A stretch of 64,000 nucleotides of DNA from a virus (taxonomy: Duplodnaviria > Heunggongvirae > Uroviricota > Caudoviricetes): the IMG/VR virus record IMGVR_UViG_2639762987_000002; one strand, 5' to 3'. The translations under genes were made by a program, and so were the position numbers. Shown here piece after piece: positions 1,627-62,502 of this stretch (position 1 is its first letter; the number at the start of each line of letters is the position of its first letter). Below the pieces are notes generated by a model. The model worked only from the letters and a program-made list of their open reading frames with translations. It was not told the DNA's origin and ran no database searches.

Positions 1627-1740
1627 ATATAGACACAATCCCTCCTGATTTACACAAGCCCTAAAACAATTTGTTTTCTACCTTTTGTTGATTGAGATAA
1701 TAAGCCACATAAGAAAACAACTTGTTTTGGAGTAGTTGAA

Positions 1741-2040
1741 ATGTTGAACATTACCCAAGCCTACCAGGTGGCATTGATCAGTTCATCTCATACATCAGAG
1801 GAAGATGCTCGCCGATTCATGATCGCAAGCAATGAGCTGGATTGGGTTTCACAAATTGATGGCGGTTGTATTGTTCACGCCGGGTTACAGAATGATGTCT
1901 GGAAAGACGACTTGCGTCGATATGGTATATCCGAAGGCGCGATTGCTAACATTCAGAAAGTACTTGATGTAGGCTTTGACTCTGTACATTTTGATTGTGG
2001 TGCGCCGGTCGTTGAAGGGCTTGAGTGCTGGAACTGGTAA
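1741..2040 (+). CDS. hypothetical early protein (99 aa)
   Basis: ORF with GGAG-type RBS; motif-1 palindrome 13 nt upstream. Confidence 0.55.
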   Translation: MLNITQAYQVALISSSHTSEEDARRFMIASNELDWVSQIDGGCIVHAGLQNDVWKDDLRRYGISEGAIANIQKVLDVGFDSVHFDCGAPVVEGLECWNW

Positions 2041-2085
2041 CAGATATTAAAGCATTGGTAGTTTGTTTTTAGGATTATCAAAGAA

Positions 2086-2820
2086 ATGAAAAAGTTGAAA
2101 AGTTTAGAAATCCCTGGGACTGGTTATAAATTCTTTATGGACAACGCGGAGTGTGCGCCTAACGCGTTGGAAAAAATACAAAGTCTTATCAACAGCCTTA
2201 CTGAAGAAGCGAAAGAACTGAAGAGCGAGGCGACAAAGGACAATACAGCTAAAATCCAATGCTTAAATCTCGTTTCTTATTGTTTATATCAAGTGTCCAA
2301 GACACTGATTAAAGGCAATATCTATTACGACGATGAAGACACCTCGACACCTGAAGAAAAAGATAGCGATGAAGAACTCTATGAAGATATCTCTACCAGT
2401 GCGGGTCATGCTGCCTTCGATGCTATGGGTGAATCGTCAGGCATCAGATCGTTTGTTGAACAGAACAATTCGACAATAATGATTGAGTACTGTGAACAAA
2501 CAAGCTCCAAGGCCATACATGTTCTTCACGATGTTGCTGCAGGGGTTCGCTGTGAGGCTGAAGCGGTCAGAAAAGATGTATTTGGTGCAGACAGTAATAC
2601 CGTGAAAGCGTTCATCAACAGTGCTCTGCTAAATTCTTACTCAAACCTTATCGTCAATGCGGCACTATGCGCGAATTCAGGTGAAGAACACATTGTCATA
2701 ACTGAAACCAAACATGAGCATCAACAGTCACCAACCATAGAAGAGGTAACTGCATTGGCTATCAAACAGGCGAGTGAAATTAGTGATGAAATTCTCTCTC
2801 TGCTAAACAAAACTATGTAA
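2086..2820 (+). CDS. hypothetical acidic early protein (244 aa)
   Basis: ORF; Asp/Glu-rich stretch (YYDDEDTSTPEEKDSDEELYED). Confidence 0.55.
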   Translation: MKKLKSLEIPGTGYKFFMDNAECAPNALEKIQSLINSLTEEAKELKSEATKDNTAKIQCLNLVSYCLYQVSKTLIKGNIYYDDEDTSTPEEKDSDEELYEDISTSAGHAAFDAMGESSGIRSFVEQNNSTIMIEYCEQTSSKAIHVLHDVAAGVRCEAEAVRKDVFGADSNTVKAFINSALLNSYSNLIVNAALCANSGEEHIVITETKHEHQQSPTIEEVTALAIKQASEISDEILSLLNKTM

Positions 2821-2930
2821 AACATTGATAATGGCGGTCACAATTTGATTCTTTTCTATAAGAATCCGTTGATCGCCACTACTCCCCTTCCATAGCTGCA
2901 ATCATATCTTTAAATATCAATAGGTTATGG

Positions 2931-3700
2931 TTGTTTATACAAATAAGAAAACAACTAAATAACAGATCAACGAAACGTCAACGCTTTCACCCGATTTGGT
3001 CTAAAAAATTGACGTTTTCACACATCACTTCTTATACCCGTAACTCTACGCAGCAGACAGCGCCACAGCGTCCAATTTTCACCACAGACGACCCAACACA
3101 CTACCAACAAAAACACACGCTCAAAATCGCTCCCGTTGCGTTACACAACCATATAAACAACTTATTTTCAGGCATAACAAAACAACTAAATAACACACAT
3201 GCCATTCCCAAAAACAACCAACCTCTTTATGGCAGGCTACCGAAAAGACCCACCTCTTCTCCCCAGGCTACCGGACAACCAACCTAACTTTCACAGGCAA
3301 TCCGAAAACATTCATACGCGCGATACCCACGACACGCCATTCCCCAAACAGCGAAGAAACACCAGAATCACTGAAACCCCAACGAAGCCTGTAACCGCAA
3401 GGATTCTCTCAATCCCAAAAGACACGAAACATAACAATCACGGGAAATGCCATTACCCAATACACGAATAACTACAAAAGCCTTTCACACACTCCAGACA
3501 AACAACTCAAACACAATAACGAAAGGAATCGCCCACCTGCCATTACTCCATACACGGAGAAGAACAATCACCAAAACGACGAGAACACCCCATAGAAGAA
3601 CCACCGCAAAACGAACGAAACCACATACACCGACAGAGAAAACAACACACCCAATTCACCAACAGAAATAGTCGCCGTATAGAACATTCTGGAAGGAGTG
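2931..3700. repeat. Non-coding CA-rich, G- and T-depleted region with four GCCATTMCC-type direct repeats
   Basis: Top strand roughly 40% A, 40% C, 10% G, 10% T by hand count of one 60-nt line; only low-complexity ORFs; repeats near 3200, 3337, 3448, 3539. Confidence 0.6.
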
Positions 3701-3870
3701 AGCATTAACGCCTATAGAGAGGTTGAGACAGATAAAACACAACATGTATAGCGAAGAAGCCAGGTATGTATAAGTGGGGAGGGAAGGAGGGGTGTCGCCT
3801 CCTTTTTCGTATTTATTCAACTCCTGATTTTATCCCCCCGTAACACCCCTACGGTCAGCCTTCGGTCCAT

Positions 3871-4012
3871 ACAGGGAAAAGGCTGCATCCCGCTACAGAA
3901 ACGGCTGGGTTGCCTTCGGGGAACGGCTGGAGGTTTTCAGGGAAACGGTCGAGTTACCTGTGTGGATTTCGGGAAAAGGCTCGATGCCGGTTCAGGAACG
4001 GTGGCGTACCGG
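3871..4012. repeat. Six tandem iteron-like direct repeats, ~22 bp period, core GGGAAA(A/C)GG(C/T)
   Basis: acagggaaaaggctg / acagaaacggctgg / ttcggggaacggctgg / ttcagggaaacggtcg / tttcgggaaaaggctcg / ttcaggaacggtggcg read directly. Confidence 0.6.
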
Positions 4013-4363
4013 TATAGCGAGAGGAAGAGTTGCGGCTACCCACCTGTAATGTGCGGGAAGAAGAGAGGCGCTCACGTAGGCGGACTTGCTTACCGCTGGA
4101 TTCCCTCTGAATGCCCAGCTACAGCGTAATTGTGCCAGACAGCCAACGGGTCACAATCGATTTCAGTAGGTTTTCGGGGAGAGGATTATTCTGCCCACCA
4201 GCCACTTTCGGCCACTAAATCAGAATAATGTAAAAAGTGTACTCGGTGCTGAACCTGAAAACTCACTGCCAAAACCACATTCACCGGAATAAAATCCTTT
4301 TTCGCCTGTGTGTTATTGCGATAATAACACCATCAAGAAAACATGTTGTTTAAGGATTGCTTT

Positions 4364-4693
4364 ATGTTTGCAAATATCGACATCAACCAAATCAAGAAAA
4401 TGACTCAAAAAGAGTTTGACCAGTTTTATGAGCTGGAAGGTTGGTCTTCCACTCTGATTAATTCAAGATGGGTGCTGGAACTGATGACTCGTGATGACGC
4501 ACCTGCTTTGATGATCAGCGACCTGGGTGAAGATGCTGACTTTATGGATATGAGCGAATTTTGTGTGGACACATACAACCGCAGCCAGAAGTACTACTTC
4601 ACATGCGATAGCGAAAATGACGTGATTTCTAAGGTCTATCTTCACCTCGTCCAGCATTGGGACGTTCAGGAGTTTCTTGAAGTATTCGAGTAA
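4364..4693 (+). CDS. hypothetical early protein (109 aa)
   Basis: ORF; start moved to ATG 4364 after RBS aaggat; the listed 4343 start lies inside the motif-1 palindrome. Confidence 0.55.
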   Translation: MFANIDINQIKKMTQKEFDQFYELEGWSSTLINSRWVLELMTRDDAPALMISDLGEDADFMDMSEFCVDTYNRSQKYYFTCDSENDVISKVYLHLVQHWDVQEFLEVFE

Positions 4694-4846
4694 CCCCAAC
4701 CAAAGCCAGCATTGCTGGCTTAATTTCTCTATAGCCGCAGGGAAGAACCTGCATATAGCTCATGCACCTGATCAATATGCTTTGTAGCCGTTTTCTTACT
4801 GGTATTATTTACGCCATTGAGAAAACAAGTTGTTTACGGAGTTGTG

Positions 4847-5158
4847 ATGAAAAAATCATTGGTTCTTGGTCTGGACAAAGACCAGAAGAGAAAAGAGAAG
4901 CCTGCGCTGGTTGCTCAATTAACTTTGCTGGACATCGTTGCCAATGGAACCTCTATTCGTCTGTTCCGTGAAACAGCGGTGTCTTTCGATAAAAACACCT
5001 TTACTCGTTATGTAATGAATGTTCGTCGCCAGCGTGGAAAAGGCTGGATGGCATATCAAAGAATGTGGCCGGAACATCAGCTCGAACTGGCTTTGATGGA
5101 AGTTAACCGCGTGGCCCAGCAAGAAATTCAGAGAGCATCAGTGATGGCAATAGCCTGA
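4847..5158 (+). CDS. hypothetical early protein (103 aa)
   Basis: ORF; ATG 4847 follows motif-1 and RBS acggag. Confidence 0.55.
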   Translation: MKKSLVLGLDKDQKRKEKPALVAQLTLLDIVANGTSIRLFRETAVSFDKNTFTRYVMNVRRQRGKGWMAYQRMWPEHQLELALMEVNRVAQQEIQRASVMAIA

Positions 5159-5194
5159 TAATGTGCAAGTGGTAATTAGTCGACAGTACGACAG

Positions 5195-5221
5195 CCCCGC
5201 CATCCTTACGGGGTTTTTTTG
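5195..5221 (+). terminator. Rho-independent terminator
   Basis: Hairpin ccccgccatccttacgggg followed by a run of T. Confidence 0.7.
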
Positions 5222-5284
5222 TATTGTAAGTACATACTTATGATCATAGAATATCAAAATAACCAATACACTATGGAGGGTGAA

Positions 5285-5680
5285 ATGACCGTTAAACGCG
5301 AAAAACTGACAGTTGATGTTTACTATGCCTCTGAAACTGCCGAAGGTAAGAATGTGGCAAAAATCACCGTTGTTACGTACAACACCGAAACTGGTGCCGA
5401 AGTCCAGGCCAGTACGATCGTGCGTAAAGGTGATGCCTCCGGCGGCGAGTACGCGACTCAATACCAGTCTATTCTCGATGCAACTGACCCGCTGCTGCTG
5501 AAAATCGAGAACTACTTCCGCCAGGTTGATGAAGAGGTGTTTGAAACCATGATGAGTATGGTTAATTCCGTATTCGCCTCCAGCCTGAACACCAGCACCA
5601 CCTGGATTGGCCAGTATGGTCTGCGCATTACCTCCGGCATTCCTGCTGACACCTTAATCCCTGAAAGCGTATTCGCTTAA
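5285..5680 (+). CDS. hypothetical protein (131 aa)
   Basis: ORF; ATG 5285 preceded by RBS ggaggg; motif-2 palindrome taagtacatactta at 5228-5241. Confidence 0.6.
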   Translation: MTVKREKLTVDVYYASETAEGKNVAKITVVTYNTETGAEVQASTIVRKGDASGGEYATQYQSILDATDPLLLKIENYFRQVDEEVFETMMSMVNSVFASSLNTSTTWIGQYGLRITSGIPADTLIPESVFA

Positions 5681-5691
5681 TCCTCTTTAAA

Positions 5692-5717
5692 TGGCGCGTA
5701 AACCGCGCCATTTTCTT
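5692..5717 (+). terminator. Rho-independent terminator
   Basis: Hairpin tggcgcgtaaaccgcgcca followed by ttttctt. Confidence 0.7.
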
Positions 5718-5797
5718 ATACCCGATAACAATTTGTTTTCTGCCTTATCTGATTTGTGAAAATGATTTCACTGAAGCAAGTTAATAAGGAAACCATC

Positions 5798-6172
5798 ATG
5801 GGACTTGATATCTATATCGAGACACAGCCTAAAAACGATCTGAATAACGAGGCATCCAGAAAGCAGGTTGCTTACTTCCGTAAGTTCAATGCGCTCGTTG
5901 GGTGGATGGAGCGCAACGTAGGTGAAGTCGAAAATTGTGAGCTTTTAGAATTAACGATGAATGACATTTGTTTTCTGAAGGCTCATTTGATGCACATAAA
6001 CGAAAGTAATTGCGAAGAGTACTTGCCTACCCGGGAAGGTTTTTTCTTCGGCAGTCAGGAGTACGATGAAGGTTACTGGCATGATGTGGGGGAGTTGAAA
6101 GAGCTTGTGGAAGATCTGATTAAGAACCACGACTTTCACAATAACAGACTGACCTTCTGCGCCTGGTGGTAA
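5798..6172 (+). CDS. hypothetical protein (124 aa; alternative start GTG 5756)
   Basis: ORF; ATG 5798 has RBS aagga at 7-nt spacing; motif-1 at 5725-5740. Confidence 0.5.
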   Translation: MGLDIYIETQPKNDLNNEASRKQVAYFRKFNALVGWMERNVGEVENCELLELTMNDICFLKAHLMHINESNCEEYLPTREGFFFGSQEYDEGYWHDVGELKELVEDLIKNHDFHNNRLTFCAWW

Positions 6173-6174
6173 AT

Positions 6175-6318
6175 ATGGGCGATTTCAAGAAAACCCTGAA
6201 GGAAAGAGCCGAGATGGTCAGAAAGCAAAACGCCTCTTCTGTCATCAGATACGCAAGGCAGTTTAGTCGCAACAACAAATCAGTTGAGGAAAAGATCCTT
6301 AGCGTAATCGGTCGATAA
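6175..6318 (+). CDS. small hypothetical protein (47 aa)
   Basis: Short ORF hand-translated MGDFKKTLKERAEMVRKQNAS...; starts 2 nt after previous stop with ggtgg upstream; below the ORF-track cutoff. Confidence 0.3.
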   Translation: MGDFKKTLKERAEMVRKQNASSVIRYARQFSRNNKSVEEKILSVIGR

Positions 6319-6522
6319 TTATTAAGGCCATCAGCATTGGTGGCCTTAAATGACCATCCTGTTTCCCGTAGGCTAAAAACACCAACCTCTTACCTCCAGG
6401 CAACCGACAAACCCACCTGTTCCCGTCCGGCTACCGCAACTTTCCACTTTGACGCCTTATTCGTACAACGATAATTAACACCAACAAGAAAACAATTTGT
6501 TATTTACGATAAGGAATTAATC

Positions 6523-7005
6523 ATGAATTTTATCGCTACTGTAAACGCACCCGCACATGGCAATATCGCTGTAACGTTCTCTGACATTGAAAAACGAGTA
6601 CTTGGTGCATGGCGCGACAATGAGACGGTAGAACTGTCAGCACAAGAAAAATGCATTATTGCACGCGACATCATTGGCAATCGTCGTTACTCGCGGGTAT
6701 TTGAGAAAGCGTATGTGGTAAATTCTGGATTCGGAACGTTCGTCTTTCCGGTGCGCTCCGGGCGATTCTGCCAGTCCAAGCTGATTGAGTTCGCTACGCA
6801 GATTTCTGTCTGGATTAAAACTCAATCGTCGTTCAAATTTTCCGACGATGAAGCAGTATCGCAGGGGATGCGGATCGCCAACAATGCAATTAAATGCAAA
6901 AACATTACGTATACCGCTGGCGTTGATACATGGAAACTGTTTTGCGCTAACTTTATGCTGAATGTATACGCAAGCAACCGCATCCACATCCTTGATGGCG
7001 TGTAA
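6523..7005 (+). CDS. hypothetical protein (160 aa)
   Basis: ORF with RBS aaggaa; motif-1 at 6485-6502. Confidence 0.6.
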   Translation: MNFIATVNAPAHGNIAVTFSDIEKRVLGAWRDNETVELSAQEKCIIARDIIGNRRYSRVFEKAYVVNSGFGTFVFPVRSGRFCQSKLIEFATQISVWIKTQSSFKFSDDEAVSQGMRIANNAIKCKNITYTAGVDTWKLFCANFMLNVYASNRIHILDGV

Positions 7006-7012
7006 CTGAGAA

Positions 7013-7036
7013 GAGGGCCAGAAACGGCCCTTTCTC
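7013..7036 (+). terminator. Rho-independent terminator
   Basis: Hairpin agggccagaaacggccct followed by ttctct. Confidence 0.55.
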
Positions 7037-7050
7037 TATAGCCACCAGCT

Positions 7051-7141
7051 GCCGCAGGGAAATTTTCAGAAACGGCAAGGAACGCATTCATGAGCCGATG
7101 GGAAACGGCCAGGATTTTTTCGGGAAACGGCTGCATTCGCC
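7051..7141. repeat. Second array of GGGAAACGGC-type direct repeats (3-4 copies)
   Basis: gcagggaaatttt / cagaaacggcaagg / gatgggaaacggccagg / ttcgggaaacggctgc; same family as 3871-4012. Confidence 0.55.
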
Positions 7142-7259
7142 TTTATGTAGAAAAAACATCGGGAAGCTGGTGGAATCCAACCAGCGGTTGTCGGACAGGT
7201 GAGCGGGGAAAATCATGATGACTTTCGTCGCCTGAGACATCCAGATTTCTTTCGTAGCG

Positions 7260-7315
7260 TAATCACATATGTGATTAAGTGGTGTGATTATGTGAAAAAT
7301 CACGCGCACATAATA
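7260..7315. promoter_or_regulatory. Operator-like nested palindromes, including a perfect 18-bp palindrome
   Basis: taatcacatatgtgatta (7260-7277) is its own reverse complement; followed by gtgattatgtg...cacataat inverted repeats. Confidence 0.5.
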
Positions 7316-7620
7316 CGCGAGCGGATACGGAACAAAACAAAATGCCGATCCGCGCCGACAAATAAACGCGGATCATAAAGCAAGACTAAAAGCCAATGAT
7401 TAACCATACTCTATAGCGCAATATAACGCGTTTTAAGCGCGTTAATGTGTTAAGTAATGGGTATGTACTGGCAAGGATATAAAAGCGCGTCTATGGCGTT
7501 ATTTTGGCGCTTATTTTTATGTTGTTGGAGTGAGTTAAAGACAATAAAAACGCGCCATCATTGGCGCGTTATGGTAGGTGTATTGGAAACGAAAAAAGCG
7601 CCCATAGTGGGCGCTCGATT

Positions 7621-7851
7621 TTATTTGTGTAAACTGATTTTAAATCCCATTTCTACAAACGCTTTTAACATTAAAAATATATCAGCGTCGTTCACGTCTG
7701 CTTTTTTTCGCTCCTGGTCGCTCAATAAGTCAATTTTGCGCGTCGTTTCATCTATAAGCTCGACTGCGCGCCCAGCGTAACCAGCGATCCCAGCGATGCG
7801 ATTAACATAATATTCATTATGGACGTTAACGCCAGCGATAAGAACAAACAT
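7621..7851 (-). CDS. hypothetical protein (76 aa)
   Basis: ORF in AT-rich minus-strand block; two tandem hairpin plus T-run terminators downstream on the minus strand (7548-7576, 7594-7622). Confidence 0.45.
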   Translation of the reverse strand: MFVLIAGVNVHNEYYVNRIAGIAGYAGRAVELIDETTRKIDLLSDQERKKADVNDADIFLMLKAFVEMGFKISLHK

Positions 7852-7872
7852 GATTAAGCTCCTTAAAAAAAA

Positions 7873-8121
7873 TTAAATAGAATTTTGAAGTTTTCCGATT
7901 AATGCGCTTAAACGTAAGTATTCACGTTTGCGCTTGCAATCTCGCTTGCTGTTAAGCAAATCAGAAAACGTAAAATTTAATTGGTCGCGTTGCGCGATCA
8001 AATCATCGATTAATTCCAGTTTATAAGCGCGATACTTTGCGCGATACTTTGCGCGGATCTTGTCATAGCTGACCATTTTTAAAGCTCCTTTAAAGCGCCC
8101 ATAGTGGGCGCTTGATTCCAT
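7873..8121 (-). CDS. hypothetical protein (82 aa; alternative internal start)
   Basis: ORF; contains a tandem 12-nt duplication encoding AKYRAKYRA. Confidence 0.4.
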   Translation of the reverse strand: MESSAHYGRFKGALKMVSYDKIRAKYRAKYRAYKLELIDDLIAQRDQLNFTFSDLLNSKRDCKRKREYLRLSALIGKLQNSI

Positions 8122-8124
8122 TAA

Positions 8125-8775
8125 TTACGCTTTAAAAGCATCAGCTAAATAATTGTAGAAATCATTCTTGATAAAGCGATATTGCTGTGTACCAGCTTTT
8201 GCGCTTCCCATTCCTTTGACTTTCTCAACAAGTCCAAGACGTTCGCAAAGATTGATCAACTGGTTGGCTTGAGTATAGCCAGCGTCCAATTTAATTTCGC
8301 ACGCTTTTTTAGCTTCATTCATTAAATCGAAAACAGCGCCATTGGTGAACGTGTCGATCTCGTCGTTAATCATATCGATTAAAGCGAATACACGAGATCC
8401 TGACATATCAGCGACGGAATAAACGCATTTACCAGCTTTAATGGATTTAACCAGATAAACCAGTTTTTCCAGTGAATAACTATTAGTCATAGCATCACGG
8501 AAAAATACTTCTGGCGCTTGTTTGCTTGCTTTAATCGCATAGTAGAAAACAGAGCATAATTTTTCGTCTTCTACTGCGTTTACGACGTTGTTGATGAAGT
8601 AAGCAAGTTTAGTGGTCGCAGCTTGCATATTTGCTTTGTCTGCTTTAGTGTGCGTACCATTTTTATAATGTTCGTTGTATGTTTGAGTTGCCAGATCTGC
8701 TTTTTCGCGCAGTTCATCGGATACAATGGAAGCAGCTTCAACGATGGATTTTTTAGAAATGATAATGTTAGCCAT
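8125..8775 (-). CDS. hypothetical protein (216 aa)
   Basis: ORF; no motif recognised. Confidence 0.55.
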   Translation of the reverse strand: MANIIISKKSIVEAASIVSDELREKADLATQTYNEHYKNGTHTKADKANMQAATTKLAYFINNVVNAVEDEKLCSVFYYAIKASKQAPEVFFRDAMTNSYSLEKLVYLVKSIKAGKCVYSVADMSGSRVFALIDMINDEIDTFTNGAVFDLMNEAKKACEIKLDAGYTQANQLINLCERLGLVEKVKGMGSAKAGTQQYRFIKNDFYNYLADAFKA

Positions 8776-9058
8776 GATGATTTTTCCTTATGTAAATTTA
8801 AAATTTATTGTCGTTAGCGTCTTCGCTTTCGACGAGTTCAATTATCGATACGCGAAAAAAGATTGCAAGTGTTTTTTTAAAATTTTTTGCAGGGATGAAA
8901 GTCCTAGAAATAAAAGCGAGATCGTCGAAGGTGTTCCCTAAATAAATAATCGATTCCGGCTTTCGACCTTATATATATTTAGGTTATTTGATTTATAGAT
9001 ATAAAGAAGTGATGTGAAAAATAATAACCGGACTTAGCCGGTTATTAACCTTATAGAT

Positions 9059-9367
9059 TTATTGAACAGACTCTACAGCCTTACGATTGGTGTCAAATAG
9101 CGCATCAACGAACTGTGCCGATGACTCGCTAGATTCGCAATCCAACATTGCCCGTTCTTCATTTGCCACTTTCTTACACAGTTCCACATTCTCGCCTATC
9201 GCTTTTCCTGCTTTTACGGCTGCCGAAAATTGATACATGCAAACTGATACATTCTGAGACGTTGAGCACACGTCATTCATCAGCGACTGAATGACAGGCT
9301 TATAGTCCATTGCATTTGCCGCAACTGAGCAAAGTAAAAATAATGGTGGTAACAATATCGATTTCAT
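9059..9367 (-). CDS. secreted Cys-rich protein with signal peptide (102 aa)
   Basis: N-terminus MKSILLPPLFLLCSVAANA is a classical Sec signal; six Cys in the mature part; terminator hairpin downstream on the minus strand (9029-9052). Confidence 0.6.
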   Translation of the reverse strand: MKSILLPPLFLLCSVAANAMDYKPVIQSLMNDVCSTSQNVSVCMYQFSAAVKAGKAIGENVELCKKVANEERAMLDCESSESSAQFVDALFDTNRKAVESVQ

Positions 9368-9370
9368 AAC

Positions 9371-9895: not shown

Positions 9896-9899
9896 GTCA

Positions 9900-10364: not shown

Positions 10365-10390
10365 CTTTGTCTCCCTAATTGATAGCGTGA

Positions 10391-10669
10391 TTATTTTAAT
10401 CTGCTTAATAGCGTTTCGAGATCTTCCTTTGTCATATTAGAGTTCTCATAGATACGCATGATTTTCTCACGAGTCTTAGCGGAAGCCCCGACAGAAGATA
10501 TAACCTTGTCAAAGTCGGCCATTGTCAATTGTTCCAGAATGGTATTTATGACTTCAGCCTTAGACATTTTGATATTTTTTTCTTTTAGTTTCACTTGAAA
10601 CTTTCCAAGTTTGTCATTGGCCTTATCAGACAATGCTACCTGACAATAAGTTGTTTTCTTTTCGCTCAT
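10391..10669 (-). CDS. hypothetical protein (92 aa)
   Basis: ORF directly downstream of the helicase gene. Confidence 0.5.
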   Translation of the reverse strand: MSEKKTTYCQVALSDKANDKLGKFQVKLKEKNIKMSKAEVINTILEQLTMADFDKVISSVGASAKTREKIMRIYENSNMTKEDLETLLSRLK

Positions 10670-10671
10670 AA

Positions 10672-12231: not shown

Positions 12232-12313
12232 AAACCTCTTTCCTTAGTGCCTTTTGTATGTTATTTGGCTATTATAATAAGTAAGTGATTACTTAGTGGA
12301 TTGTAGCAATAAA

Positions 12314-15567: not shown

Positions 15568-15682
15568 TTAGTAAGACATGCCAGACCTAATTAAACACCC
15601 CAGAAAACAAGTTGGTTAGCAGATGCAGTAAACAAGTTGTTTTAGAGCGCATGGACGCGCTCTGTGTGTTTTAGAGGGATCT

Positions 15683-45652: not shown

Positions 45653-45799
45653 TTAACAGCCATTGATTCTCGCCTAAAAATTCTAAGGCAGCACCTACCA
45701 TTTAACCTTTACACCACAGCCGTAGGCATTTAGGCTATATCACATATAAGAAAACAAGTTGTTTCAGACGATAATTATATACGCAAAGGGAACTCTCCA

Positions 45800-46468
45800 A
45801 TGACCAAGATCTTTGTGGTTGGCGGCACAAAGGGCGGGCCTGGCAAATCCACCGTTGCCCAGCAAATTGCCGTTTGCCTGAAAGTCAAAAAGAAGAAGAA
45901 GGTTTATATCACTGATATAGATATTCAGCGCACGACAACAAGCTGGTGTGAAGACCGTCGACAGAACGAAGACCTTGAGCTGATTCCTTTTGCATACGTT
46001 CAGGATGACATCATTAAGCACCTAAAATCGCTTCAGGGTAGAGCTGAGTTTGTAGTGGTAGATGCTGGTGGCTTCGACTCCGAAATTCAGCGACAAGCGA
46101 TGCTGATGGCTGACGTTATCATTATCCCGCTGCGTCCTAAGCGTCGTGATTTGAAATCTTTACGTGACATCGATCCTATTATCGACAATGTTCGCAATGT
46201 AAACGATAAAGTGAAGGTCCGCGCGGTCATGAACCAGTGCCCGGCTTTGCCATCACAAGTGTCTCGCATTCTGGCGGCTAAAGAGATTGTTGAGACGTTT
46301 GGCATCGAGTCTGCGCCAGTCAATCTATATAACCGCAACGTCTATGATGATGCGGAAGAGTCTGGTCGTTCTATCTTTGAAATGACCGGTAGCGAGCGCG
46401 ACAAAAAGGCGGAAGCCGAGTTTGAAGAATTTGTAGATTATCTGTTGAGTCTGGAGGAAGAAGAATAA
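45800..46468 (+). CDS. parA: ParA/ParF-type partition ATPase (222 aa)
   Basis: Deviant Walker A GGTKGGPGKST; followed by a small RHH protein; motif-1 upstream. Confidence 0.8.
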   Translation: MTKIFVVGGTKGGPGKSTVAQQIAVCLKVKKKKKVYITDIDIQRTTTSWCEDRRQNEDLELIPFAYVQDDIIKHLKSLQGRAEFVVVDAGGFDSEIQRQAMLMADVIIIPLRPKRRDLKSLRDIDPIIDNVRNVNDKVKVRAVMNQCPALPSQVSRILAAKEIVETFGIESAPVNLYNRNVYDDAEESGRSIFEMTGSERDKKAEAEFEEFVDYLLSLEEEE

Positions 46469-46827
46469 TGTCCATGAAAATGGGTGACCTAGCAAAGCGC
46501 AAAGAGCCTGATGCACCGGCTAAGAACACAACTCCTTTGCGCCAACCAGTCAGACCACAGGGACGCCCGACTCGTGGCAAAGAGAAAATTAAAAGCCGCA
46601 CAATGTCACTGGAGGACGAATACTTCGAACTGCTGGAGATGATGAAGTTCATCCCTCGCTTCGAGAAGTTCACTCGTTCTGACGTGATTCGAGCAGCCAT
46701 TTTCCATCTGGCAGAGAAGTCACCGCAGGAAATCGAGGACATCGTGAAATTGAATGAGGCGATCACCGCTGCCGATGTCACGATGCGTACCGATGAAATT
46801 AAACGAGAGTTGATGAAGAAAGGTTAA
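46468..46827 (+). CDS. ParG-like ribbon-helix-helix centromere-binding protein (119 aa)
   Basis: C-terminal RHH-like segment, basic disordered N-terminus, start overlaps parA stop. Confidence 0.65.
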   Translation: MSMKMGDLAKRKEPDAPAKNTTPLRQPVRPQGRPTRGKEKIKSRTMSLEDEYFELLEMMKFIPRFEKFTRSDVIRAAIFHLAEKSPQEIEDIVKLNEAITAADVTMRTDEIKRELMKKG

Positions 46828-48670: not shown

Positions 48671-48713
48671 CTAATACTAGAAAACAATTTGTTTAAAAAA
48701 CAAAGGAAAGCAC

Positions 48714-50083: not shown

Positions 50084-50135
50084 TGATTCATTGGTGAAAC
50101 AACTTTTCTTTTGCCAAACCACAAAAGAAAAACAC

Positions 50136-54837: not shown

Positions 54838-55615
54838 AAACATATTGATAAGTATTTACTTACTTATCTTTTGTGTATAAGATGACTTTGTTTTCGTTGA
54901 GACGCGACTGTTTGAACTTAAATACAAGTGCAAACGAAGAAGTCTATCTGGCAGTAGCCTAATAAGCCAAACACCAGCGAGGTCAGTTTCCAGCCTCGTT
55001 ACCGAAATGGGACACACTGAGCGAGTGTGATTGCAGAACGCAGGAGGGAACATTCATGTTCCCTCCGATGAAGTAACAGAATGGGCGGTTGGTATATTTT
55101 CAACTCCATATGACTCCCGGATTCTTAGCCACTGACCGCCCATCCTGTTACGTCATTTTGTTCAATTATGTCGTTTATACTGGGTTAAAAAGCGGCGACG
55201 TAGCCCGGCTGGTATGGTTAGCCAGCACACAACGTTGAGGCCATTACATTTTTATCAATTCTAAGGTTCTATTCACAGAGATACCGGCGAGCGTTGATAT
55301 GTAACATGTTGGGCAAACATTCAATCGGAGTAGTGGCCTCAACGTTGTGAAGACGGGATTGTTGTGTAGGTTTAACCACTGTTGCCATTGGTGCCTGTTT
55401 TCACAACAAATGATTCCATACATCACATTGTATAAATTACAAAGTAGGTGCTGTCCTCAGAAACATCATCTACTTAAAGATTTTGCCTTCTACTATTGAG
55501 CGAAGTCGAAAGCGTCTGGCACTAACGAAAAGTGCAAGTAGCGGTGCGTTTCCTGGCAGAAACTAAACCGTCGCGATTGGCACTGTTGAGTAATAAATAC
55601 TGGCAGTGCTGAATT

Positions 55616-57729: not shown

Positions 57730-57755
57730 AAGATAGGTATGCACATACCTATCTT
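57730..57755. promoter_or_regulatory. 26-bp operator-like palindrome with 11-bp perfect arms
   Basis: aagataggtat gcac atacctatctt, followed by gtaagtaaagttac. Confidence 0.5.
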
Positions 57756-58070: not shown

Positions 58071-58251
58071 TCCCACCAAACTCACTCCCGTTTCCCTTAA
58101 AATTCAAAAAACAACGTCAAAATGATTCCATACCTACTATGTATGGAATCATTGCTGAAAATGAGTTACTTTTACTCTTGATCCTATAAGAATCTATGCC
58201 TAATATACTGTTTACTTATACAGTGCATCGGCGTAACTCGGTGATTGTCAT

Positions 58252-59355
58252 ATGAAAAATAGCTTTGACAGAGCACGCGCTGCGGAGAACACCTCAAAAG
58301 AGGCGATAGAGTATCTCGAAAGAGCATCTCAAATGCAGGCCGTTATGATCTCGCAGGTTAGCAATGACATGAGATTCTCGGACGCATTCATGTTATTCAC
58401 TCGCTTATCTCTGCTGATAACCAGACGTCGGCCAGAGATCGCTGTTCATTGTATTTTGATACATGTTTTGCCGCACATTGCCGATGTAAAAGTAAGTGAC
58501 ATTAATAGGTTCATGGTGAACCAACTGGTCAACCCACTAATACTGGATGGCAAAATTGTTATGGGCCGCCGCGTTTTCTCTCTGATGAAGCAGTTCCTTA
58601 GCTGGTGCGCCTTCCAGGGGATGATAGACGTGTCACCGTTAAACGATATGTCACTAAACAAAGTTGCCGGTGGCGCAAAGCCCACACCTCGCGAGCGGAA
58701 GCTGACCGACGCAGAGGTATGGGTGTTCTGGAATATATGGGACTACTTCAATGTGTGCGCTGGTACAAAATGGGCGGCCAGGCTGTGTCTTGTATCCGCA
58801 AGACGACCTGACGAAGTACTGCGGGCTAAAAAAAGTGAGTTCAATCTTAAGCGTGGGGTTTGGAATCAAGGCAAGAGGAACAAATCTGCCCGTGAGCATT
58901 CGCTGCCTTTAAGCACATTAATGCGCACATGTATTGAAGAGTTGTTCGAATACGGTAAAGGCAGCCAGTGGCTCGTGCCTTCGAATAAAAAAATCGGGAA
59001 AGACCTTCCTATGTCTAAAGTGGCAATAGCCCAGGCATTACGTCGTATCCTGGAACGACCAGAACTGATGGAGCTTGAGCCATTTACACCCCGAGACTTG
59101 CGCCGTACTGCGCGTAGTTACTTCCCAGCATTAGGCATAAGCCAGGAGGTATCACGTAAAATCATGAACCACAGTCTTGAGGGGATAGATCGAGTCTACG
59201 ACCGGCACGATTATATGGACGAGATGCGAGACGCCTTAGAAAGTTTCTCGACGTACATCGCATCAATCGTAGAGCAACCGGATTTAGACGAAATTGACCA
59301 CAAATTTAAGGGAGATCGTCTATCAACAGAGCTTATTCGTGTAAATTTTTCATAG
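58252..59355 (+). CDS. int: tyrosine recombinase / integrase (367 aa)
   Basis: C-terminal catalytic region with conserved R (PRDLRRTARS), HxxR-like and Y (VYDRHDY) residues. Confidence 0.8.
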   Translation: MKNSFDRARAAENTSKEAIEYLERASQMQAVMISQVSNDMRFSDAFMLFTRLSLLITRRRPEIAVHCILIHVLPHIADVKVSDINRFMVNQLVNPLILDGKIVMGRRVFSLMKQFLSWCAFQGMIDVSPLNDMSLNKVAGGAKPTPRERKLTDAEVWVFWNIWDYFNVCAGTKWAARLCLVSARRPDEVLRAKKSEFNLKRGVWNQGKRNKSAREHSLPLSTLMRTCIEELFEYGKGSQWLVPSNKKIGKDLPMSKVAIAQALRRILERPELMELEPFTPRDLRRTARSYFPALGISQEVSRKIMNHSLEGIDRVYDRHDYMDEMRDALESFSTYIASIVEQPDLDEIDHKFKGDRLSTELIRVNFS

Positions 59356-59736
59356 AGACTTTATGGCCTCAACAACCTTTTGTGATGCGCCTTTCTCTTT
59401 ACCGAATCGCTCGTTATATGCAGCAAGAACCTGTTTTTCGTCCTCGTTAAGAGGAGCAGTGCCTTCTTTGTATAAAAATGCTGCGAGTTCGGGTTGGCGT
59501 TCTTCCAGCACCATCATCATAAGACGACTTGGCTCAATACCCAGTGCCAGCGCCAGCGGACGAACCTTATCGATAGGCAAAGGAATTTTGCCGCTTTTAA
59601 TTAAAGAAAGGTTGTTGGCGTTTTTATACCCAATTGTTTTGGCTATCTGGGCCTGGCTCATAGGTGAGGATTCAATCAACCCTGCGATAAAAGCAGCGTA
59701 GCGACTTTCTATAAATTCAATCTTGTTATCAGACAT
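59350..59736 (-). CDS. XRE-family HTH transcriptional regulator, repressor-like (128 aa)
   Basis: HTH SQAQIAKTIGYKNANNLSLIKSGK; divergent from the downstream + strand genes. Confidence 0.7.
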   Translation of the reverse strand: MSDNKIEFIESRYAAFIAGLIESSPMSQAQIAKTIGYKNANNLSLIKSGKIPLPIDKVRPLALALGIEPSRLMMMVLEERQPELAAFLYKEGTAPLNEDEKQVLAAYNERFGKEKGASQKVVEAIKSL

Positions 59737-59987
59737 GGTTACAACCTTTGCGCGTTCAATTCTCTCTGGTAAGTGCTTACCGATATTACATCAAAGGTTA
59801 GGGTTGTAAAGCTATTATCATTTTTTTCGATAGGCACTTAAAAGACCGGTTAAAGGCCATTGCACGGAGAAAAATTAGCCCAAAATAGGTAAGAAAATTA
59901 ACTTGCATATGATATGAATGTATTCAGTATTGATACAAATTTTAGTAGTATTCCTTACCATAGTATAAGTTAGAATGGATTGATTGA

Positions 59988-60200
59988 ATGAACACCACTA
60001 TTTCCAGCCTAATCGCTCTTGAGATCGGACACGTACAGAAATTAGCTGATGAGTGTGTAGCTGACATCCTCACCGATCTACCGAATGAGCAGATTCAGGT
60101 TGGTGTGAATGACACAACTGGCTTTATATTCGAACTTAACAACAAACGCTTCACGCTTCTCAATACCGGCTCCGAGTCTTTAGCCGTCAGAATCTGTTAA
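59988..60200 (+). CDS. hypothetical protein (70 aa)
   Basis: ORF. Confidence 0.4.
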   Translation: MNTTISSLIALEIGHVQKLADECVADILTDLPNEQIQVGVNDTTGFIFELNNKRFTLLNTGSESLAVRIC

Positions 60201-60298
60201 CCCCTCTTCTCCCTGCGCGAATGGCTTAGTTCCCTGTTCGCGCAGTGCTACATTAAACACACTAGTAAATAATTTGTTTTCATAACAAAGGATTAGCC

Positions 60299-62407
60299 AT
60301 GTCTAAAAAACGTTCCATCAAAGAGGTTCAGGACTTCCGTGACAGTGTAAAACGAGTAGTCGCTCTCCTTTCAGGTAAAAACATCCCTGTTGCAGAACGA
60401 GGAGACGACGCTTATGTACGCTATAACGATGATGGAGAGCCAATTCTCGTAAACATCCCATCAATCCCGGATAACGCAACACCGGCATTGATGAATGCTG
60501 TGCGCGGATTTCTCGATCATGAGGTTGCTCACATTTTGTTTACCGATATTCGTGTGTCCAACAAAATGAGAGAAAAAGAACGCGTTCCTTCTTGGTCGCT
60601 ATGGAATGCCTTAGAAGACGTGTTCATCGAGCGAAAAATGGGGCAGGTCTTTAACGGAACAAGACGTAATCTGATGGCAACTCAGCGCCTTATAATCGAA
60701 AAAGTCTTTAAACCAAAGGCTTCAGAGGCTATTGCTTATTGTGGCAAAGATCAGCGCGCGCTTTTTCTAAACTTCTTTCTCTGTCCGGTTGTAAGAGCCT
60801 GGGATGGCCAAGCACCGTTCGTAGATTTCATGGATGAATACTGGCCTGTCATTGAGAAACCAATTTCATTATTAAAAGAACATGGTATCGATGTGGCCGT
60901 GCGTAACATGTCTTGCACCGAGGATTGTGTAAAGGTGGCTGCGACCATAGCTAAGATCCTCAAAGACACTGAAAGTGAAAGCAAAGGTAAGGAGTCAGCT
61001 CCGGGAAAAACTTCCGATCCTTCAGACGCTGACCAGACGGATGCCTCTGGAGAAAACAGTGAAGACAACGAAGATCATGAGACACCCTCAGCGTTAGATA
61101 ATCACAAATCTATCAAATCAGAATCACATAGTAGGTACAAACATGATAATAACGACAGTGATGATTCAGATAATTCTGAATCATCAGAAACAATATTCGA
61201 TGATACAGAAAATGATAAAGAGGTATCAGATTCTGATGCTTCTGATAACGCGGCGTCAGAATCATTAACCGCTGACCACGAAAAAAGAAAAACGACAGAA
61301 GACGGCTCTTCAGATATCCCAACTCCGTCAAAAATGAGTCTGGAAGAGGCTTTAGAGGAGTTGGATAGCATGGAAGATGAAGTCGGAGGCATGACAGAAG
61401 ATGCGCTATCCGAAACGATTAAAAGCGAGTTAACAGAAAGCTCGAAAAGCGAATACAGGCCATACAATCGCTCATACGACTTCATCGGCTCGATTGATCA
61501 GGCAGAAGCCCATATCAAACGGCTTATTAAAACATTCTCCGATATTGATTTGGGAGGATATCCAATCAGCCGCTATCGCATCGTTCCTGAAGGCAACCAG
61601 CTCTTCGACAAATATATTGAAAAGCACCTTTCGTCAGGTGTTTCGTCGACGCTGGCAAAAGACCTGGAACGTGCAATAGCAAGCAGAAACAGAGTTCAGT
61701 TTATACCTGGCCAGCGTCGGGGGCGCATTCATGGTTCAAGTATCTACAGATTAACAATGAATGATGATCGCGTGTTTCGTAAAAAAGAAGAATCTAAAGC
61801 CGTTAACGCCTGTGTTCAACAAGTGATTGATTTATCGGGTTCAATGAGTGGCGAAACGATAAAACTAGCTCTTGCAAGTGCATATACCATCGCCGATGCA
61901 CTTGATCGAATAAATGTTCCCAACATTATCACCGGCTTCACTACATTTGGCAGTCATATGGCAGCAGGAGAACTTAAGGCTATCAAATATGAGTTCTCTC
62001 GCTTTGAATCTTTAATGCTACCTATCATCAAAAATTGGAATGAAAAAGCAAATTCTCGCGAAGTTCGCTCACGTATGGGGTGCGTAGGCTACACATTCCC
62101 ACTTCTTAATAACGTGGATGGTGAAAGCATAGCCAGCCTTGCATCGTTATTTTCCGGTCGCATGGAGGACAGGAAGATCATGCTTGTTCTGAGTGATGGC
62201 GCGCCGTGGGCTGTTGGGAGAGGTTTTGACGCTCATTTGCGTTCAGTTGCGAAGCAAATTGAAACGCAGACTGATATTGATTTGATGGCAATTGGCATCA
62301 TGACTGACGCACCGGAGAGATTTTACTCAAATCATGCCCTGGTAACGAGCGTTGATAGTCTTGGTTCATCTGTAGTTACTGAACTATCTCGTATCATTTT
62401 AAAGTGA
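60299..62407 (+). CDS. vWA-domain protein, CobT-like (702 aa)
   Basis: C-terminal MIDAS motif VIDLSGSMSG; central Asp/Ser/Glu-rich low-complexity linker; motif-1 upstream. Confidence 0.7.
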   Translation: MSKKRSIKEVQDFRDSVKRVVALLSGKNIPVAERGDDAYVRYNDDGEPILVNIPSIPDNATPALMNAVRGFLDHEVAHILFTDIRVSNKMREKERVPSWSLWNALEDVFIERKMGQVFNGTRRNLMATQRLIIEKVFKPKASEAIAYCGKDQRALFLNFFLCPVVRAWDGQAPFVDFMDEYWPVIEKPISLLKEHGIDVAVRNMSCTEDCVKVAATIAKILKDTESESKGKESAPGKTSDPSDADQTDASGENSEDNEDHETPSALDNHKSIKSESHSRYKHDNNDSDDSDNSESSETIFDDTENDKEVSDSDASDNAASESLTADHEKRKTTEDGSSDIPTPSKMSLEEALEELDSMEDEVGGMTEDALSETIKSELTESSKSEYRPYNRSYDFIGSIDQAEAHIKRLIKTFSDIDLGGYPISRYRIVPEGNQLFDKYIEKHLSSGVSSTLAKDLERAIASRNRVQFIPGQRRGRIHGSSIYRLTMNDDRVFRKKEESKAVNACVQQVIDLSGSMSGETIKLALASAYTIADALDRINVPNIITGFTTFGSHMAAGELKAIKYEFSRFESLMLPIIKNWNEKANSREVRSRMGCVGYTFPLLNNVDGESIASLASLFSGRMEDRKIMLVLSDGAPWAVGRGFDAHLRSVAKQIETQTDIDLMAIGIMTDAPERFYSNHALVTSVDSLGSSVVTELSRIILK

Positions 62408-62502
62408 ACAAAACAGCCTTAACGATAAGTAACCACTTACGATAGATAATGATATATTTATATAAGAAGTTGAACGCTCATTAGAAAACAAAGGAAAAAC
62501 GC

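What the first reader, a model, noticed from the sequence alone, without database searches (positions are those of the whole stretch)
1663..62494. Motif 1: a 17-bp palindrome GAAAACAA-N-TTGTTTTC immediately upstream of at least 12 start codons
Near-identical copies lie 8-40 nt upstream of start codons at 1663, 1712, 4336, 4819, 5725, 6485, 15601, 15630, 45748, 48678, 50096 (variant), 60268 and 62481 (half-site), always before + strand early, partition, helicase, primase or CobT/CobS-like genes. Left-arm half-sites also occur at 2945 and 3180 inside the CA-rich region. The position over the 5' leader suggests a shared operator for one regulator or an 8-bp A/U-rich hairpin in the mRNA leader, defining a regulon across the element.
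Basis: seen in the sequence. Interest (0 to 1): 0.7.

Follow-up and report, generated by a model that had tools for sequence, protein, structure and literature searches.

The report
Shared operator palindrome of a phage-plasmid
A 17-base palindrome sits just downstream of about a dozen promoters of this SSU5-like phage-plasmid and most likely serves as the common DNA binding site of one element-encoded repressor that keeps early, replication and packaging genes off while the phage lives as a plasmid; this is a known kind of circuit, though this particular one appears undescribed.

Summary
The motif is real. The window holds 13 full copies of GAAAACAA-N-TTGTTTTC (10 with ≤2 mismatches against 0.03 expected), and 12 lie in the 12% of non-coding DNA, 9-63 nt before + strand start codons. 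Two full sites were missed (3153, 10642). The window is an SSU5/pHCM2-type phage-plasmid, ~97% identical to E. coli LF82 phage Cyrano. Cyrano has 20 sites, SSU5 has 21, and Klebsiella-type relatives carry them too.

Most sites lie 11-12 nt after an extended -10 box (TGnGATAAT), so about +5 to +21. A few are inverted and overlap the -35 region, paired exactly 51 bp from a downstream site. Hairpins are unstable (0 to -1.8 kcal/mol), and 60 site variants show no compensatory change in the six inner base pairs (a few in the outer two). In published LF82 lysogen RNA-seq the downstream genes are silent, except the parA operon. I read it as a repressor operator.

The binder is unresolved. My best guess (~40%) is the small ParG-like protein encoded after parA. 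The XRE repressor more likely binds a second palindrome, TAGGTAAGTRCTTACCTA. The 88-aa protein is disfavoured.

The parts
1662..1678 (.). Motif 1 site TAAAACAATTTGTTTTC. Inverted orientation (perfect arm faces the promoter). It overlaps the -35 region of the promoter of gene 1741-2040 and lies 51 bp from site 1713.
1696..1701 (+). -10 hexamer GATAAT with TG one base upstream (extended -10), 11 nt before site 1713. The same arrangement occurs at 4320-4325 (GATAAT), 4803-4808 (TATTAT) and 6470-6475 (GATAAT).
   Evidence: read from the sequence; promoters are inferred and not mapped
1713..1729 (.). Motif 1 site GAAAACAACTTGTTTTG, about +5 to +21; 11 nt before the ATG at 1741.
3153..3169 (.). Motif 1 site ATAAACAACTTATTTTC inside the CA-rich repeat region.
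   Evidence: (PWM 18.7)
4337..4353 (.). Motif 1 site GAAAACATGTTGTTTAA, 10 nt before the ATG at 4364.
4821..4837 (.). Motif 1 site GAAAACAAGTTGTTTAC (best PWM score), 9 nt before the ATG at 4847.
5724..5740 (.). Motif 1 site GATAACAATTTGTTTTC, inverted orientation. It follows a terminator hairpin and abuts TGCCTTAT-N9-(TGt)GAAAAT; centre about -38.
6488..6504 (.). Motif 1 site GAAAACAATTTGTTATT (degenerate right arm) after TTGACG-N-GATAAT; 18 nt before the ATG at 6523.
10642..10658 (.). Motif 1 site GACAATAAGTTGTTTTC inside codons 4-9 of minus-strand gene 10391-10669 (92 aa, ribbon-helix-helix-like by sequence pattern only).
   Evidence: present in E. coli-type relatives only
15603..15619 (.). 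Motif 1 site GAAAACAAGTTGGTTAG, first of two before the small terminase gene.
15628..15644 (.). Motif 1 site GTAAACAAGTTGTTTTA, 25 bp from the first. A terminator-like hairpin follows, then terS (ATG 15683).
45750..45766 (.). Motif 1 site GAAAACAAGTTGTTTCA, 33 nt before parA. It is the only palindrome between the upstream terminator and parA.
45800..46468 (+). Small ParA-type partition ATPase (222 aa, no N-terminal DNA-binding domain).
46468..46827 (+). ParG-like small partner protein (119 aa): basic N-terminal tail plus a ribbon-helix-helix-like core. Best candidate binder of Motif 1 (inferred).
48680..48696 (.). Motif 1 site GAAAACAATTTGTTTAA, 17 nt before the DnaB-like helicase gene.
60265..60281 (.). 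Motif 1 site GTAAATAATTTGTTTTC, 17 nt before the CobT-like gene.
50095..50111 (+). Left half-site only (TGAAACAAC...), before the primase gene.
62484..62491 (+). Left half-site only (GAAAACAA), merging into the ribosome-binding site of the CobS-like gene.

Best explanation
Motif 1 is a DNA operator. A dimeric (or dimer-of-dimers) protein encoded by the element binds the 13-bp core AAACAA-N-TTGTTT. At most sites it sits at about +5 to +21 of sigma-70 promoters of the extended -10 type and blocks RNA polymerase, in the way lac O1 does. At a few promoters a second, inverted copy overlaps the -35 region exactly 51 bp upstream, which would allow cooperative binding on one face of the helix. Together the sites keep about 20 promoters off while the element is maintained as a plasmid. 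These promoters drive small early genes, helicase, nrdB, CobT and terminase.

Shown: enrichment, position, symmetry, conservation in relatives, lack of RNA-type covariation, and silence of the downstream genes in a lysogen of a near-identical element.

Inferred: the promoters and transcription starts, repression as the mode of action, and the binder. My preferred binder (about 40%) is the ParG-like small partition protein (46468-46827). It would then autoregulate parA and also act as a global silencer.
For: Enrichment and a clean score gap. 12 of 13 sites are non-coding.

A -10-like box lies 11-12 nt upstream, with TG one base before the hexamer in many sites. The distance to the start codon varies from 9 to 63 nt, so the site is tied to the promoter and not to the ribosome-binding site.

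Inverted copies lie upstream of promoters, right after terminators. Pairs are spaced exactly 51 bp in the window, in Cyrano and twice in SSU5.

There are no compensatory changes in the six inner pairs across 60 variants, and hairpins have 0 to -1.8 kcal/mol.

The same motif occurs in Cyrano (20 sites), SSU5 (21), Klebsiella-type and more distant clades. A distant relative, Pectobacterium plasmid Drgb1, lacks it; the only palindrome found at that kind of position there is TAGGTATTTAAATACCTA.

LF82/Cyrano lysogen RNA-seq (PMC9928086 S1 table) has a background median of 9.8. Genes behind Motif 1 read 5-13: terS 7.1, CobT 7.8, CYRAN_58 5.7, 101 7.5, 105 12.8, 106 12.2, 108 5.7, 110 6.7. Helicase reads 21. 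The gene behind the degenerate site 6488 (CYRAN_111) reads 25.

For the ParG-like binder: the parA operon is the only Motif 1 operon clearly on (50/89/55), as expected for negative autoregulation. Motif 1 is the only palindrome upstream of parA. It also precedes parA in SSU5, in Klebsiella-type plasmids and, as a perfect palindrome, in a more distant clade. The predicted reading head, IKSRTMS(L/I/M)EDE plus FTRSDVIRAAI, is invariant across these clades down to 48% overall identity. In TP228 the ribbon-helix-helix protein ParG binds both the centromere and the operator of its autoregulated operon (PMC3130281).
Against: There are no binding data and no mapped transcription starts. The promoters are read from consensus only, and the simple -35/-10 scan does not call them. 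The RNA-seq comes from a 97%-identical element, not from this one.

Against the ParG-like binder: its ribbon-helix-helix fold is not established. Pfam finds nothing, there is only a weak NCBIfam aCcr1 match (E 2e-4) far below cut-off, hhalign against ParG and omega is negative, and there are no PDB relatives. Only one site lies at parA, where this type of partition system usually has an array. The Drgb1 clade keeps the same reading head yet lacks the palindrome, showing only GAAAAC...GTTTTC hexamers 37 bp apart before parA in 2 of 5 loci and 15 bp apart in a third. How induction would lift such repression is unknown.
Confidence: 0.7

Rival explanations
1. The mechanism is the same (a repressor operator), but the binder is another element-encoded DNA-binding protein expressed in the lysogen. 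Candidates are the 92-aa ribbon-helix-helix-like protein (10391-10669, minus strand) and the XRE repressor (59350-59736, minus strand).
For: Both are expressed in the LF82 lysogen (114 and 96 against a median of 9.8), and both occur in essentially all ~800 SSU5-like plasmids.

The 92-aa gene carries a Motif 1 site in its own codons 4-9.

The XRE recognition helix is conserved in Motif 1 clades (KNANNLS/ENANNLS) and differs in Drgb1 (SSHNNVS). Phage SSU5 lacks the XRE and integrase genes but keeps the sites.
Against: XRE: the only perfect palindrome in its own upstream region is GGTAAGTGCTTACC (59768-59781). This is the core of a different genome-wide motif, TAGGTAAGTRCTTACCTA. No Motif 1 site lies there.

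92-aa protein: the fold is unconfirmed (AlphaFold pLDDT 55; hhalign against Mnt negative). The residues expected to face DNA vary among clades that share an invariant motif. The intragenic site is absent from SSU5- and Klebsiella-type relatives.
Confidence: 0.2
2. The motif acts in the mRNA leader. It could be a hairpin, or a sequence bound by an RNA-binding repressor such as the FljA-like protein (9371-9892, minus strand), controlling translation or mRNA decay.
Against: Hairpins have 0 to -1.8 kcal/mol. All deviations in the six inner pairs are one-sided (27 mismatches, 6 G-U, 0 compensated). The outer pairs are mismatched in about two thirds of sites. Exact dyad symmetry has no reason to exist in single-stranded RNA recognition. 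Inverted copies lie upstream of promoters at a fixed 51 bp. Downstream mRNAs are at background level rather than merely reduced. FljA-like alleles are hypervariable (33-100% identity) while the motif is invariant. The fliC leader matches the 17-mer at only 10 of 16 positions.
Confidence: 0.08
3. The palindrome is part of a specialised promoter or activator site used in lytic growth. The genes would then be silent in the lysogen only because an activator is absent, for example the 71-aa or 88-aa winged-helix proteins.
For: The sites share more than the palindrome: GCCTTWT-N9-(TGn)GATAAT-N11-palindrome. The 71-aa and 88-aa proteins are not expressed in the lysogen (6.4 and 7.8). The 71-aa protein has no homologue in Drgb1.
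Against: A centre at about +13 is a repressor position, not an activator position. Extended -10 promoters are normally active without an activator (established knowledge). Part of the shared flank is explained by paralogous duplication of promoter cassettes. The recognition helix of the 88-aa protein is identical in the clade without the motif.
Confidence: 0.07
4. The palindrome is the binding site of a host (enterobacterial) factor that the element exploits.
For: The motif is invariant across elements of Escherichia, Salmonella and Klebsiella. It is absent from the Pectobacterium element.
Against: From my own knowledge, it matches no E. coli regulator consensus that I know. The only palindrome found at such positions in Drgb1 is a different one, which fits an element-encoded regulator better.
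Confidence: 0.05

Closest known systems
Phage-plasmid P1: C1 repressor and its dispersed operators (from my own knowledge)
   Same: A plasmid prophage in which one repressor holds many scattered promoters through a common 17-bp site. In P1 this includes the promoter of a DnaB-like helicase gene (ban).
   Different: P1 operators are asymmetric and bound by a monomer. Here the site is a palindrome. No C1 homologue was seen among the annotated genes, and the sequences are unrelated.
TP228 ParG (ribbon-helix-helix) with its parH centromere and OF operator (PMC3130281); pSM19035 omega (own knowledge)
   Same: A small ParA ATPase gene is followed by a small protein with a flexible basic tail and a ribbon-helix-helix-like core. 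That protein represses its own operon from sites before parA. Omega also regulates several other operons.
   Different: In those systems the sites are arrays of 4-bp or 7-bp boxes next to the operon. Here there is a single 17-bp palindrome at parA and about 19 more at distant promoters. Homology to ParG or omega was not detectable.
Plasmid RK2: KorB and its 12 OB palindromes (own knowledge)
   Same: A partition protein that also acts as a global repressor through a short palindrome spread over the replicon.
   Different: KorB is a ParB-family helix-turn-helix protein. The two ParB_N proteins of this element (12296-13662) are silent in the lysogen and have no Motif 1 site in front of them.
Phage-plasmid N15: SopB and the four IR centromere palindromes (PMC7205306; their dispersal over the genome is from my own knowledge)
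   Same: A phage-plasmid whose partition protein recognises single palindromes rather than one tandem array.
   Different: N15 has four sites, a ParB-family binder and a different sequence. A regulatory role at about 20 promoters is not established there.
lac O1-type downstream operators (own knowledge)
   Same: A palindromic operator centred around +11 to +13, which blocks polymerase after or during open-complex formation.
   Different: lac is a single operon with a LacI-family binder.

Membership tests
Repressor operator shared by a regulon | Site far more frequent than composition predicts, and concentrated in promoter regions | tested here: met
   10 matches against 0.03 expected. 13 sites separated by a score gap. 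12 of 13 are non-coding, while non-coding DNA is 11.6% of the window.
Repressor operator shared by a regulon | Fixed position relative to core promoter elements, overlapping the polymerase footprint | tested here: met
   A -10 box lies 11-12 nt upstream at most sites. Inverted copies overlap the -35 region. Pairs are 51 bp apart. The promoters themselves are inferred.
Repressor operator shared by a regulon | Target genes are off when the regulator is present | tested here: inconclusive
   Downstream genes are at background in the LF82 lysogen of a 97%-identical element. There is no comparison without the regulator.
Repressor operator shared by a regulon | Demonstrated protein binding | not testable with these tools
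   Needs EMSA, footprinting or ChIP.
Structured RNA leader element (hairpin) | Stable stem and compensatory base changes | tested here: not met
   Hairpins have 0 to -1.8 kcal/mol. There are 0 compensated changes in the six inner pairs of 60 variants.
Partition cassette with a small ParA and a ribbon-helix-helix centromere-binding protein (ParF/ParG type) | Small ParA without an N-terminal DNA-binding domain | tested here: met
   222 aa. Pfam MipZ, AAA_31 and CbiA match. NCBIfam ParA_partition gives E 1.9e-33, below its cut-off.
Partition cassette with a small ParA and a ribbon-helix-helix centromere-binding protein (ParF/ParG type) | A small partner gene follows directly and encodes a basic flexible tail plus a ribbon-helix-helix fold | tested here: inconclusive
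   The 119-aa gene overlaps the parA stop codon. It has an invariant PQGRPTRGK tail and a strand-helix-helix sequence pattern. The only family match is weak (aCcr1, E 2e-4). hhalign against ParG and omega is negative.
Partition cassette with a small ParA and a ribbon-helix-helix centromere-binding protein (ParF/ParG type) | Array of binding boxes next to the operon, serving as centromere and operator | tested here: not met
   There is one 17-bp palindrome before parA and no other repeat. The other copies are dispersed.
P1 C1-type immunity | Asymmetric 17-bp operator and a C1-family repressor | tested here: not met
   The site is a palindrome. No protein annotated as C1-like appears in Cyrano, SSU5 or PhiR41_1. 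No dedicated homology search was done.
FljA / Flag1_repress (for gene 9371-9892) | Match to PF03614 over its full length | tested here: met
   E 2.5e-84, 282 bits against a cut-off of 24. The predicted fold is tandem Hfq/Sm. A link to Motif 1 is not supported.

The most novel reading that the evidence does not exclude
The partition protein of the element (the ParG-like 119-aa protein made from the parA operon) is also the global silencer of about 20 early, replication and packaging promoters. Plasmid segregation and the lysis-lysogeny state would then share one DNA-binding protein and one dispersed site. Because every new genome copy adds about 20 binding sites, a rise in copy number could titrate the protein and help lock in lytic development.
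Probability: 0.35. Interest if true: 0.7.

Novelty: new member of a known kind. Interest (0 to 1): 0.45.

Why it matters
SSU5/pHCM2-type phage-plasmids are very common in Escherichia, Salmonella, Klebsiella, Enterobacter and Yersinia: about 800 records in the plasmid collection searched here. I found no description of how they are regulated in the paper library. This work gives a concrete map: two palindromic operator families that between them sit before most promoters, and a short list of candidate binders with clear tests. If the partition protein is the Motif 1 binder, it would show how a phage-plasmid couples the plasmid way of life to control of the phage programme.

Tried and rejected
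1. Exact-motif scan of viral contigs. Most of the 87 loci are single chance hits; only SSU5-like contigs have several sites, and none pointed to a binder.

2. Exact-motif scan of genomes.

3. I first excluded the XRE protein because phage SSU5 lacks it. I withdrew that argument. The gene is present in about 790 plasmid-resident relatives, so SSU5 may be a deletion derivative. XRE is now disfavoured on other grounds (its own operator matches Motif 2).

4. The structure prediction of the 92-aa protein was too poor to search with (pLDDT 55). hhalign against Mnt and a PDB profile search were negative.

5. ParG-like protein: the PDB profile search, the HMMER search of 1.84 billion representatives (only 19 relatives, all of this phage-plasmid group) and hhalign against ParG and omega gave no link to a solved ribbon-helix-helix protein.

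6. Papers on the FljA mechanism are not held. The fliC leader was recovered from primer sequences only.

7. Literature searches for SSU5 regulation found nothing on this motif.

8. My own dinucleotide shuffle mixed poorly and is not used. The tool's shuffles are.

9. The simple promoter scan does not call these promoters, because they lack a -35 box.

Full report
WHAT THE WINDOW IS. Bases 1-20000 are 98.5% identical to Escherichia phage CMS-2020a and 96-97% identical to phages PhiR41_1 and Cyrano, with weaker matches to Klebsiella phage-plasmids and Salmonella phage SSU5. The window is therefore about 60% of an SSU5/pHCM2-type phage-plasmid. Cyrano (pLF82) is well annotated, is produced as virions and is induced 39-fold by ciprofloxacin (PMC9928086). 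I used it as the reference for gene names and for expression data.

THE OBSERVATION. GAAAACAANTTGTTTTC has 10 matches with at most 2 mismatches, against 0.03 expected. A symmetrised weight matrix separates 13 sites (scores 18.7-25.7) from everything else (13.1 or lower).
- The 'variant' at 50096 and the 'half-site' at 62481 are only left arms.
- The 2945/3180 'half-sites' are two copies of a 22-nt direct repeat.
- Two full sites were missed. One is 3153, in the CA-rich region. The other is 10642, inside codons 4-9 of a minus-strand gene.
- 12 of 13 sites are non-coding, and non-coding DNA is 11.6% of the window (after correcting the start of the 4364 gene). All 12 precede + strand genes; for the 11 with an assignable gene the distance to the start codon is 9-63 nt.
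- The same motif occurs 20 times in the whole Cyrano genome and 21 times in SSU5. It also occurs in Klebsiella-type plasmids before parA and the helicase gene, and as perfect palindromes before cobT and parA in a more distant clade.

ANATOMY. I aligned the sites on the palindrome. The only other conserved block is a -10-like box 11-12 nt upstream. It is often GATAAT or TATTAT with TG one base before it, which is an extended -10 promoter. This places the palindrome at roughly +5 to +21. The distance to the start codon is variable, so the site goes with the promoter and not with the ribosome-binding site.

A second class of sites (1662 and 5724 in the window; 85816 in Cyrano; several in SSU5) has the opposite orientation. 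Real sites are slightly asymmetric: GAAAACAA-N-TTGTTTAA in the first class, and its reverse complement in the second. The second class lies upstream of a promoter, abutting TnCCTTWT-N9-GAnAAT, with its centre near -38, and often directly follows a terminator hairpin. Where both classes flank one promoter, the spacing is exactly 51 bp. This holds in the window, in Cyrano and in two SSU5 promoters. The terS promoter has two sites 25 bp apart, followed by a terminator-like hairpin.

DNA OR RNA. Four observations argue against an RNA structure.
- The 21-mers fold with 0 to -1.8 kcal/mol.
- Among 60 distinct variants collected from all loci, the six inner pairs deviate 33 times: 27 mismatches, 6 G-U and no compensated change. 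The two outer pairs are mismatched in about two thirds of the variants. Selection therefore acts on the sequence AAACAA-N-TTGTTT, not on base pairing.
- Copies upstream of promoters, and the fixed 51-bp phasing, have no meaning in RNA.
- Downstream mRNAs are at background level, not merely reduced (see next section).
I conclude that the motif is read as double-stranded DNA by a symmetric protein.

DIRECTION OF CONTROL. The S1 table of PMC9928086 gives RNA-seq values for every Cyrano gene in LF82 (median 9.8).
- Genes right behind Motif 1 are at background: terS 7.1, CobT 7.8, CYRAN_58 5.7, nrdB 12.9, TciA-like 7.0, CYRAN_87 7.1, 93 6.3, 101 7.5, 105 12.8, 106 12.2, 108 5.7, 110 6.7. Helicase reads 21.
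- The gene behind the degenerate site (6488 equivalent, CYRAN_111) reads 25.
- The parA operon reads 50/89/55.
Extended -10 promoters are normally active on their own (established knowledge). Silence therefore points to repression by something made in the lysogen. A centre at about +13 is also a repressor position.

WHO BINDS. Several candidates can be weighed.

1. The 88-aa protein (15221-15487). It is a winged-helix protein by weak matches. It is not expressed in the lysogen (7.8). Its recognition helix is identical in a clade that lacks the motif. Disfavoured.

2. The XRE protein (59350-59736).
- It is expressed in the lysogen (96).
- It is absent from SSU5 but present, next to the integrase gene, in about 790 plasmids. 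SSU5 may simply have lost it.
- Its upstream region has no Motif 1 site. It holds a perfect palindrome, GGTAAGTGCTTACC.
- That palindrome is the core of a second genome-wide motif, TAGGTAAGTRCTTACCTA, which I met while studying a distant relative. It has 20 hits at <=2 mismatches of TAAGTA-N6-TACTTA against 1.7 expected, and about 30 and 38 sites in Cyrano and SSU5.
- These sites lie in short gaps before parB, portal, tail and other genes.
XRE is therefore the natural candidate for Motif 2, not for Motif 1.

3. Pectobacterium plasmid Drgb1, a distant SSU5-like element. It has no Motif 1. It carries TAGGTATTTAAATACCTA, related to Motif 2, immediately before many genes. So the architecture of a -10 box followed by a palindrome is old, and Motif 1 is an addition of the SSU5/Cyrano/Klebsiella clades.

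4. The FljA-like protein (9371-9892). It matches Flag1_repress. It is confidently predicted as two tandem Hfq/Sm domains, which fits an RNA binder. Its alleles vary from 33 to 100% identity among elements with the same motif. Unlikely.

5. The 92-aa protein (10391-10669). It is expressed in the lysogen (114) and has a site in its own coding start. However, its ribbon-helix-helix nature rests only on my reading of the sequence, and its putative DNA-facing residues vary among clades.

6. The protein after parA (46468-46827), annotated in Cyrano as RelE/ParE.
- It has the layout of a ParG-type centromere-binding protein: a basic tail with invariant PQGRPTRGK, then a strand-helix-helix pattern.
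- It gives a weak match to the ribbon-helix-helix family aCcr1.
- parA is a small ParA.
- Partition genes of this kind are autoregulated, and ParG binds both centromere and operator (PMC3130281).
- The only palindrome before parA is Motif 1.
- parA is the one Motif 1 operon that is on in the lysogen.
- The putative reading head is invariant in every Motif 1 clade, down to 48% overall identity.

I therefore favour this last protein as the binder. The link is circumstantial.
- The fold is unproven.
- There is no site array at parA.
- The Drgb1 clade keeps the reading head without the palindrome, showing only GAAAAC and GTTTTC hexamers 37 bp apart before parA in 2 of 5 loci and 15 bp apart in a third.

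COMPARISON WITH KNOWN SYSTEMS.
- The circuit works like the C1 operator network of P1: many dispersed 17-bp operators in a plasmid prophage, including one before a helicase gene. It is not a member of that family, because the site is symmetric and no C1-like gene is annotated.
- If the partition protein is the binder, the closest relatives in logic are omega of pSM19035, KorB of RK2 and the dispersed SopB sites of N15. Homology to none of them is detectable.
- I found no paper in the held library that describes this motif or SSU5-type regulation.

VERDICT. The regulon is real, strongly supported and apparently undescribed. It is best read as a repressor operator (confidence 0.7). The kind of system is well known, so novelty is modest unless the partition-protein link holds.

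Noticed in passing
window 12278-12295, 17569-17586, 19076-19093, 24567-24584, 31072-31089, 37985-38002, 42766-42783, 47899-47916, 51333-51350, 54849-54866, 57734-57751; core copy at 59768-59781: A second palindrome family, TAGGTAAGTRCTTACCTA. It gives 20 hits at <=2 mismatches of TAAGTA-N6-TACTTA against 1.7 expected. The sites lie in short gaps before parB, portal, tail and other genes that lack Motif 1. Its 14-bp core, GGTAAGTGCTTACC, sits 30 nt upstream of the XRE repressor gene, so XRE is its likely binder. A related palindrome is the only one found in the distant plasmid Drgb1.
   Followed up: partly
[not shown]
   Followed up: partly
window 58206-58225: A good LexA box (TACTGTTTACTTATACAGTG; CTGT-N8-ACAG) lies 27 nt before the integrase-like gene (58252-59355). 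That gene converges on the XRE repressor gene and overlaps its end by 6 nt. SOS-induced transcription could therefore run antisense into the repressor gene. Cyrano is induced by ciprofloxacin.
   Followed up: no
window 15510-15567 and about 47757-47814: Two nearly identical copies of a ~58-bp palindrome, CCTGYTTCTGTATATATAAATAATAAGTAACTTATTAAATATATACGGAAGCAGG. The deposited linear genomes of Cyrano and SSU5 start in the middle of the first copy, just before terS, so it may mark the packaging site or a bidirectional terminator. Drgb1-type relatives have an equivalent at the same two places.
   Followed up: partly
window 15645-15675: A terminator-like hairpin, GAGCGC-ATGGAC-GCGCTC followed by TGTGTGTTTT, lies in the leader of the small terminase gene, after the two Motif 1 sites. 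The late operon may need antitermination as well as derepression.
   Followed up: no
window 2850-4300: A CA-rich stretch of about 1.4 kb without convincing genes. It holds at least eight families of 16-31-nt direct repeats and one Motif 1 site. Its function is unknown; an origin, iterons or a long non-coding RNA are possibilities.
   Followed up: no
window 46468-46827 (+): The Cyrano homologue of this gene is annotated 'RelE/ParE putative toxin'. Its position, overlapping the stop codon of a small parA, and its sequence layout fit a ParG-type centromere-binding protein instead.
   Followed up: partly
Salmonella phage SSU5 (L092-L094) versus window 58252-60200: SSU5 lacks the integrase-like gene, the XRE repressor and the 70-aa gene next to them, while about 790 plasmid-resident relatives have them. 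The type phage may be a deletion derivative that cannot maintain lysogeny.
   Followed up: partly
window 10642-10658 within gene 10391-10669 (-): One full Motif 1 site lies inside a coding sequence, on the only minus-strand transcription unit that carries one. It is found only in E. coli-type relatives. The gene's Cyrano homologue is expressed in the lysogen (114). The purpose is unexplained; a roadblock or autoregulation is possible.
   Followed up: partly
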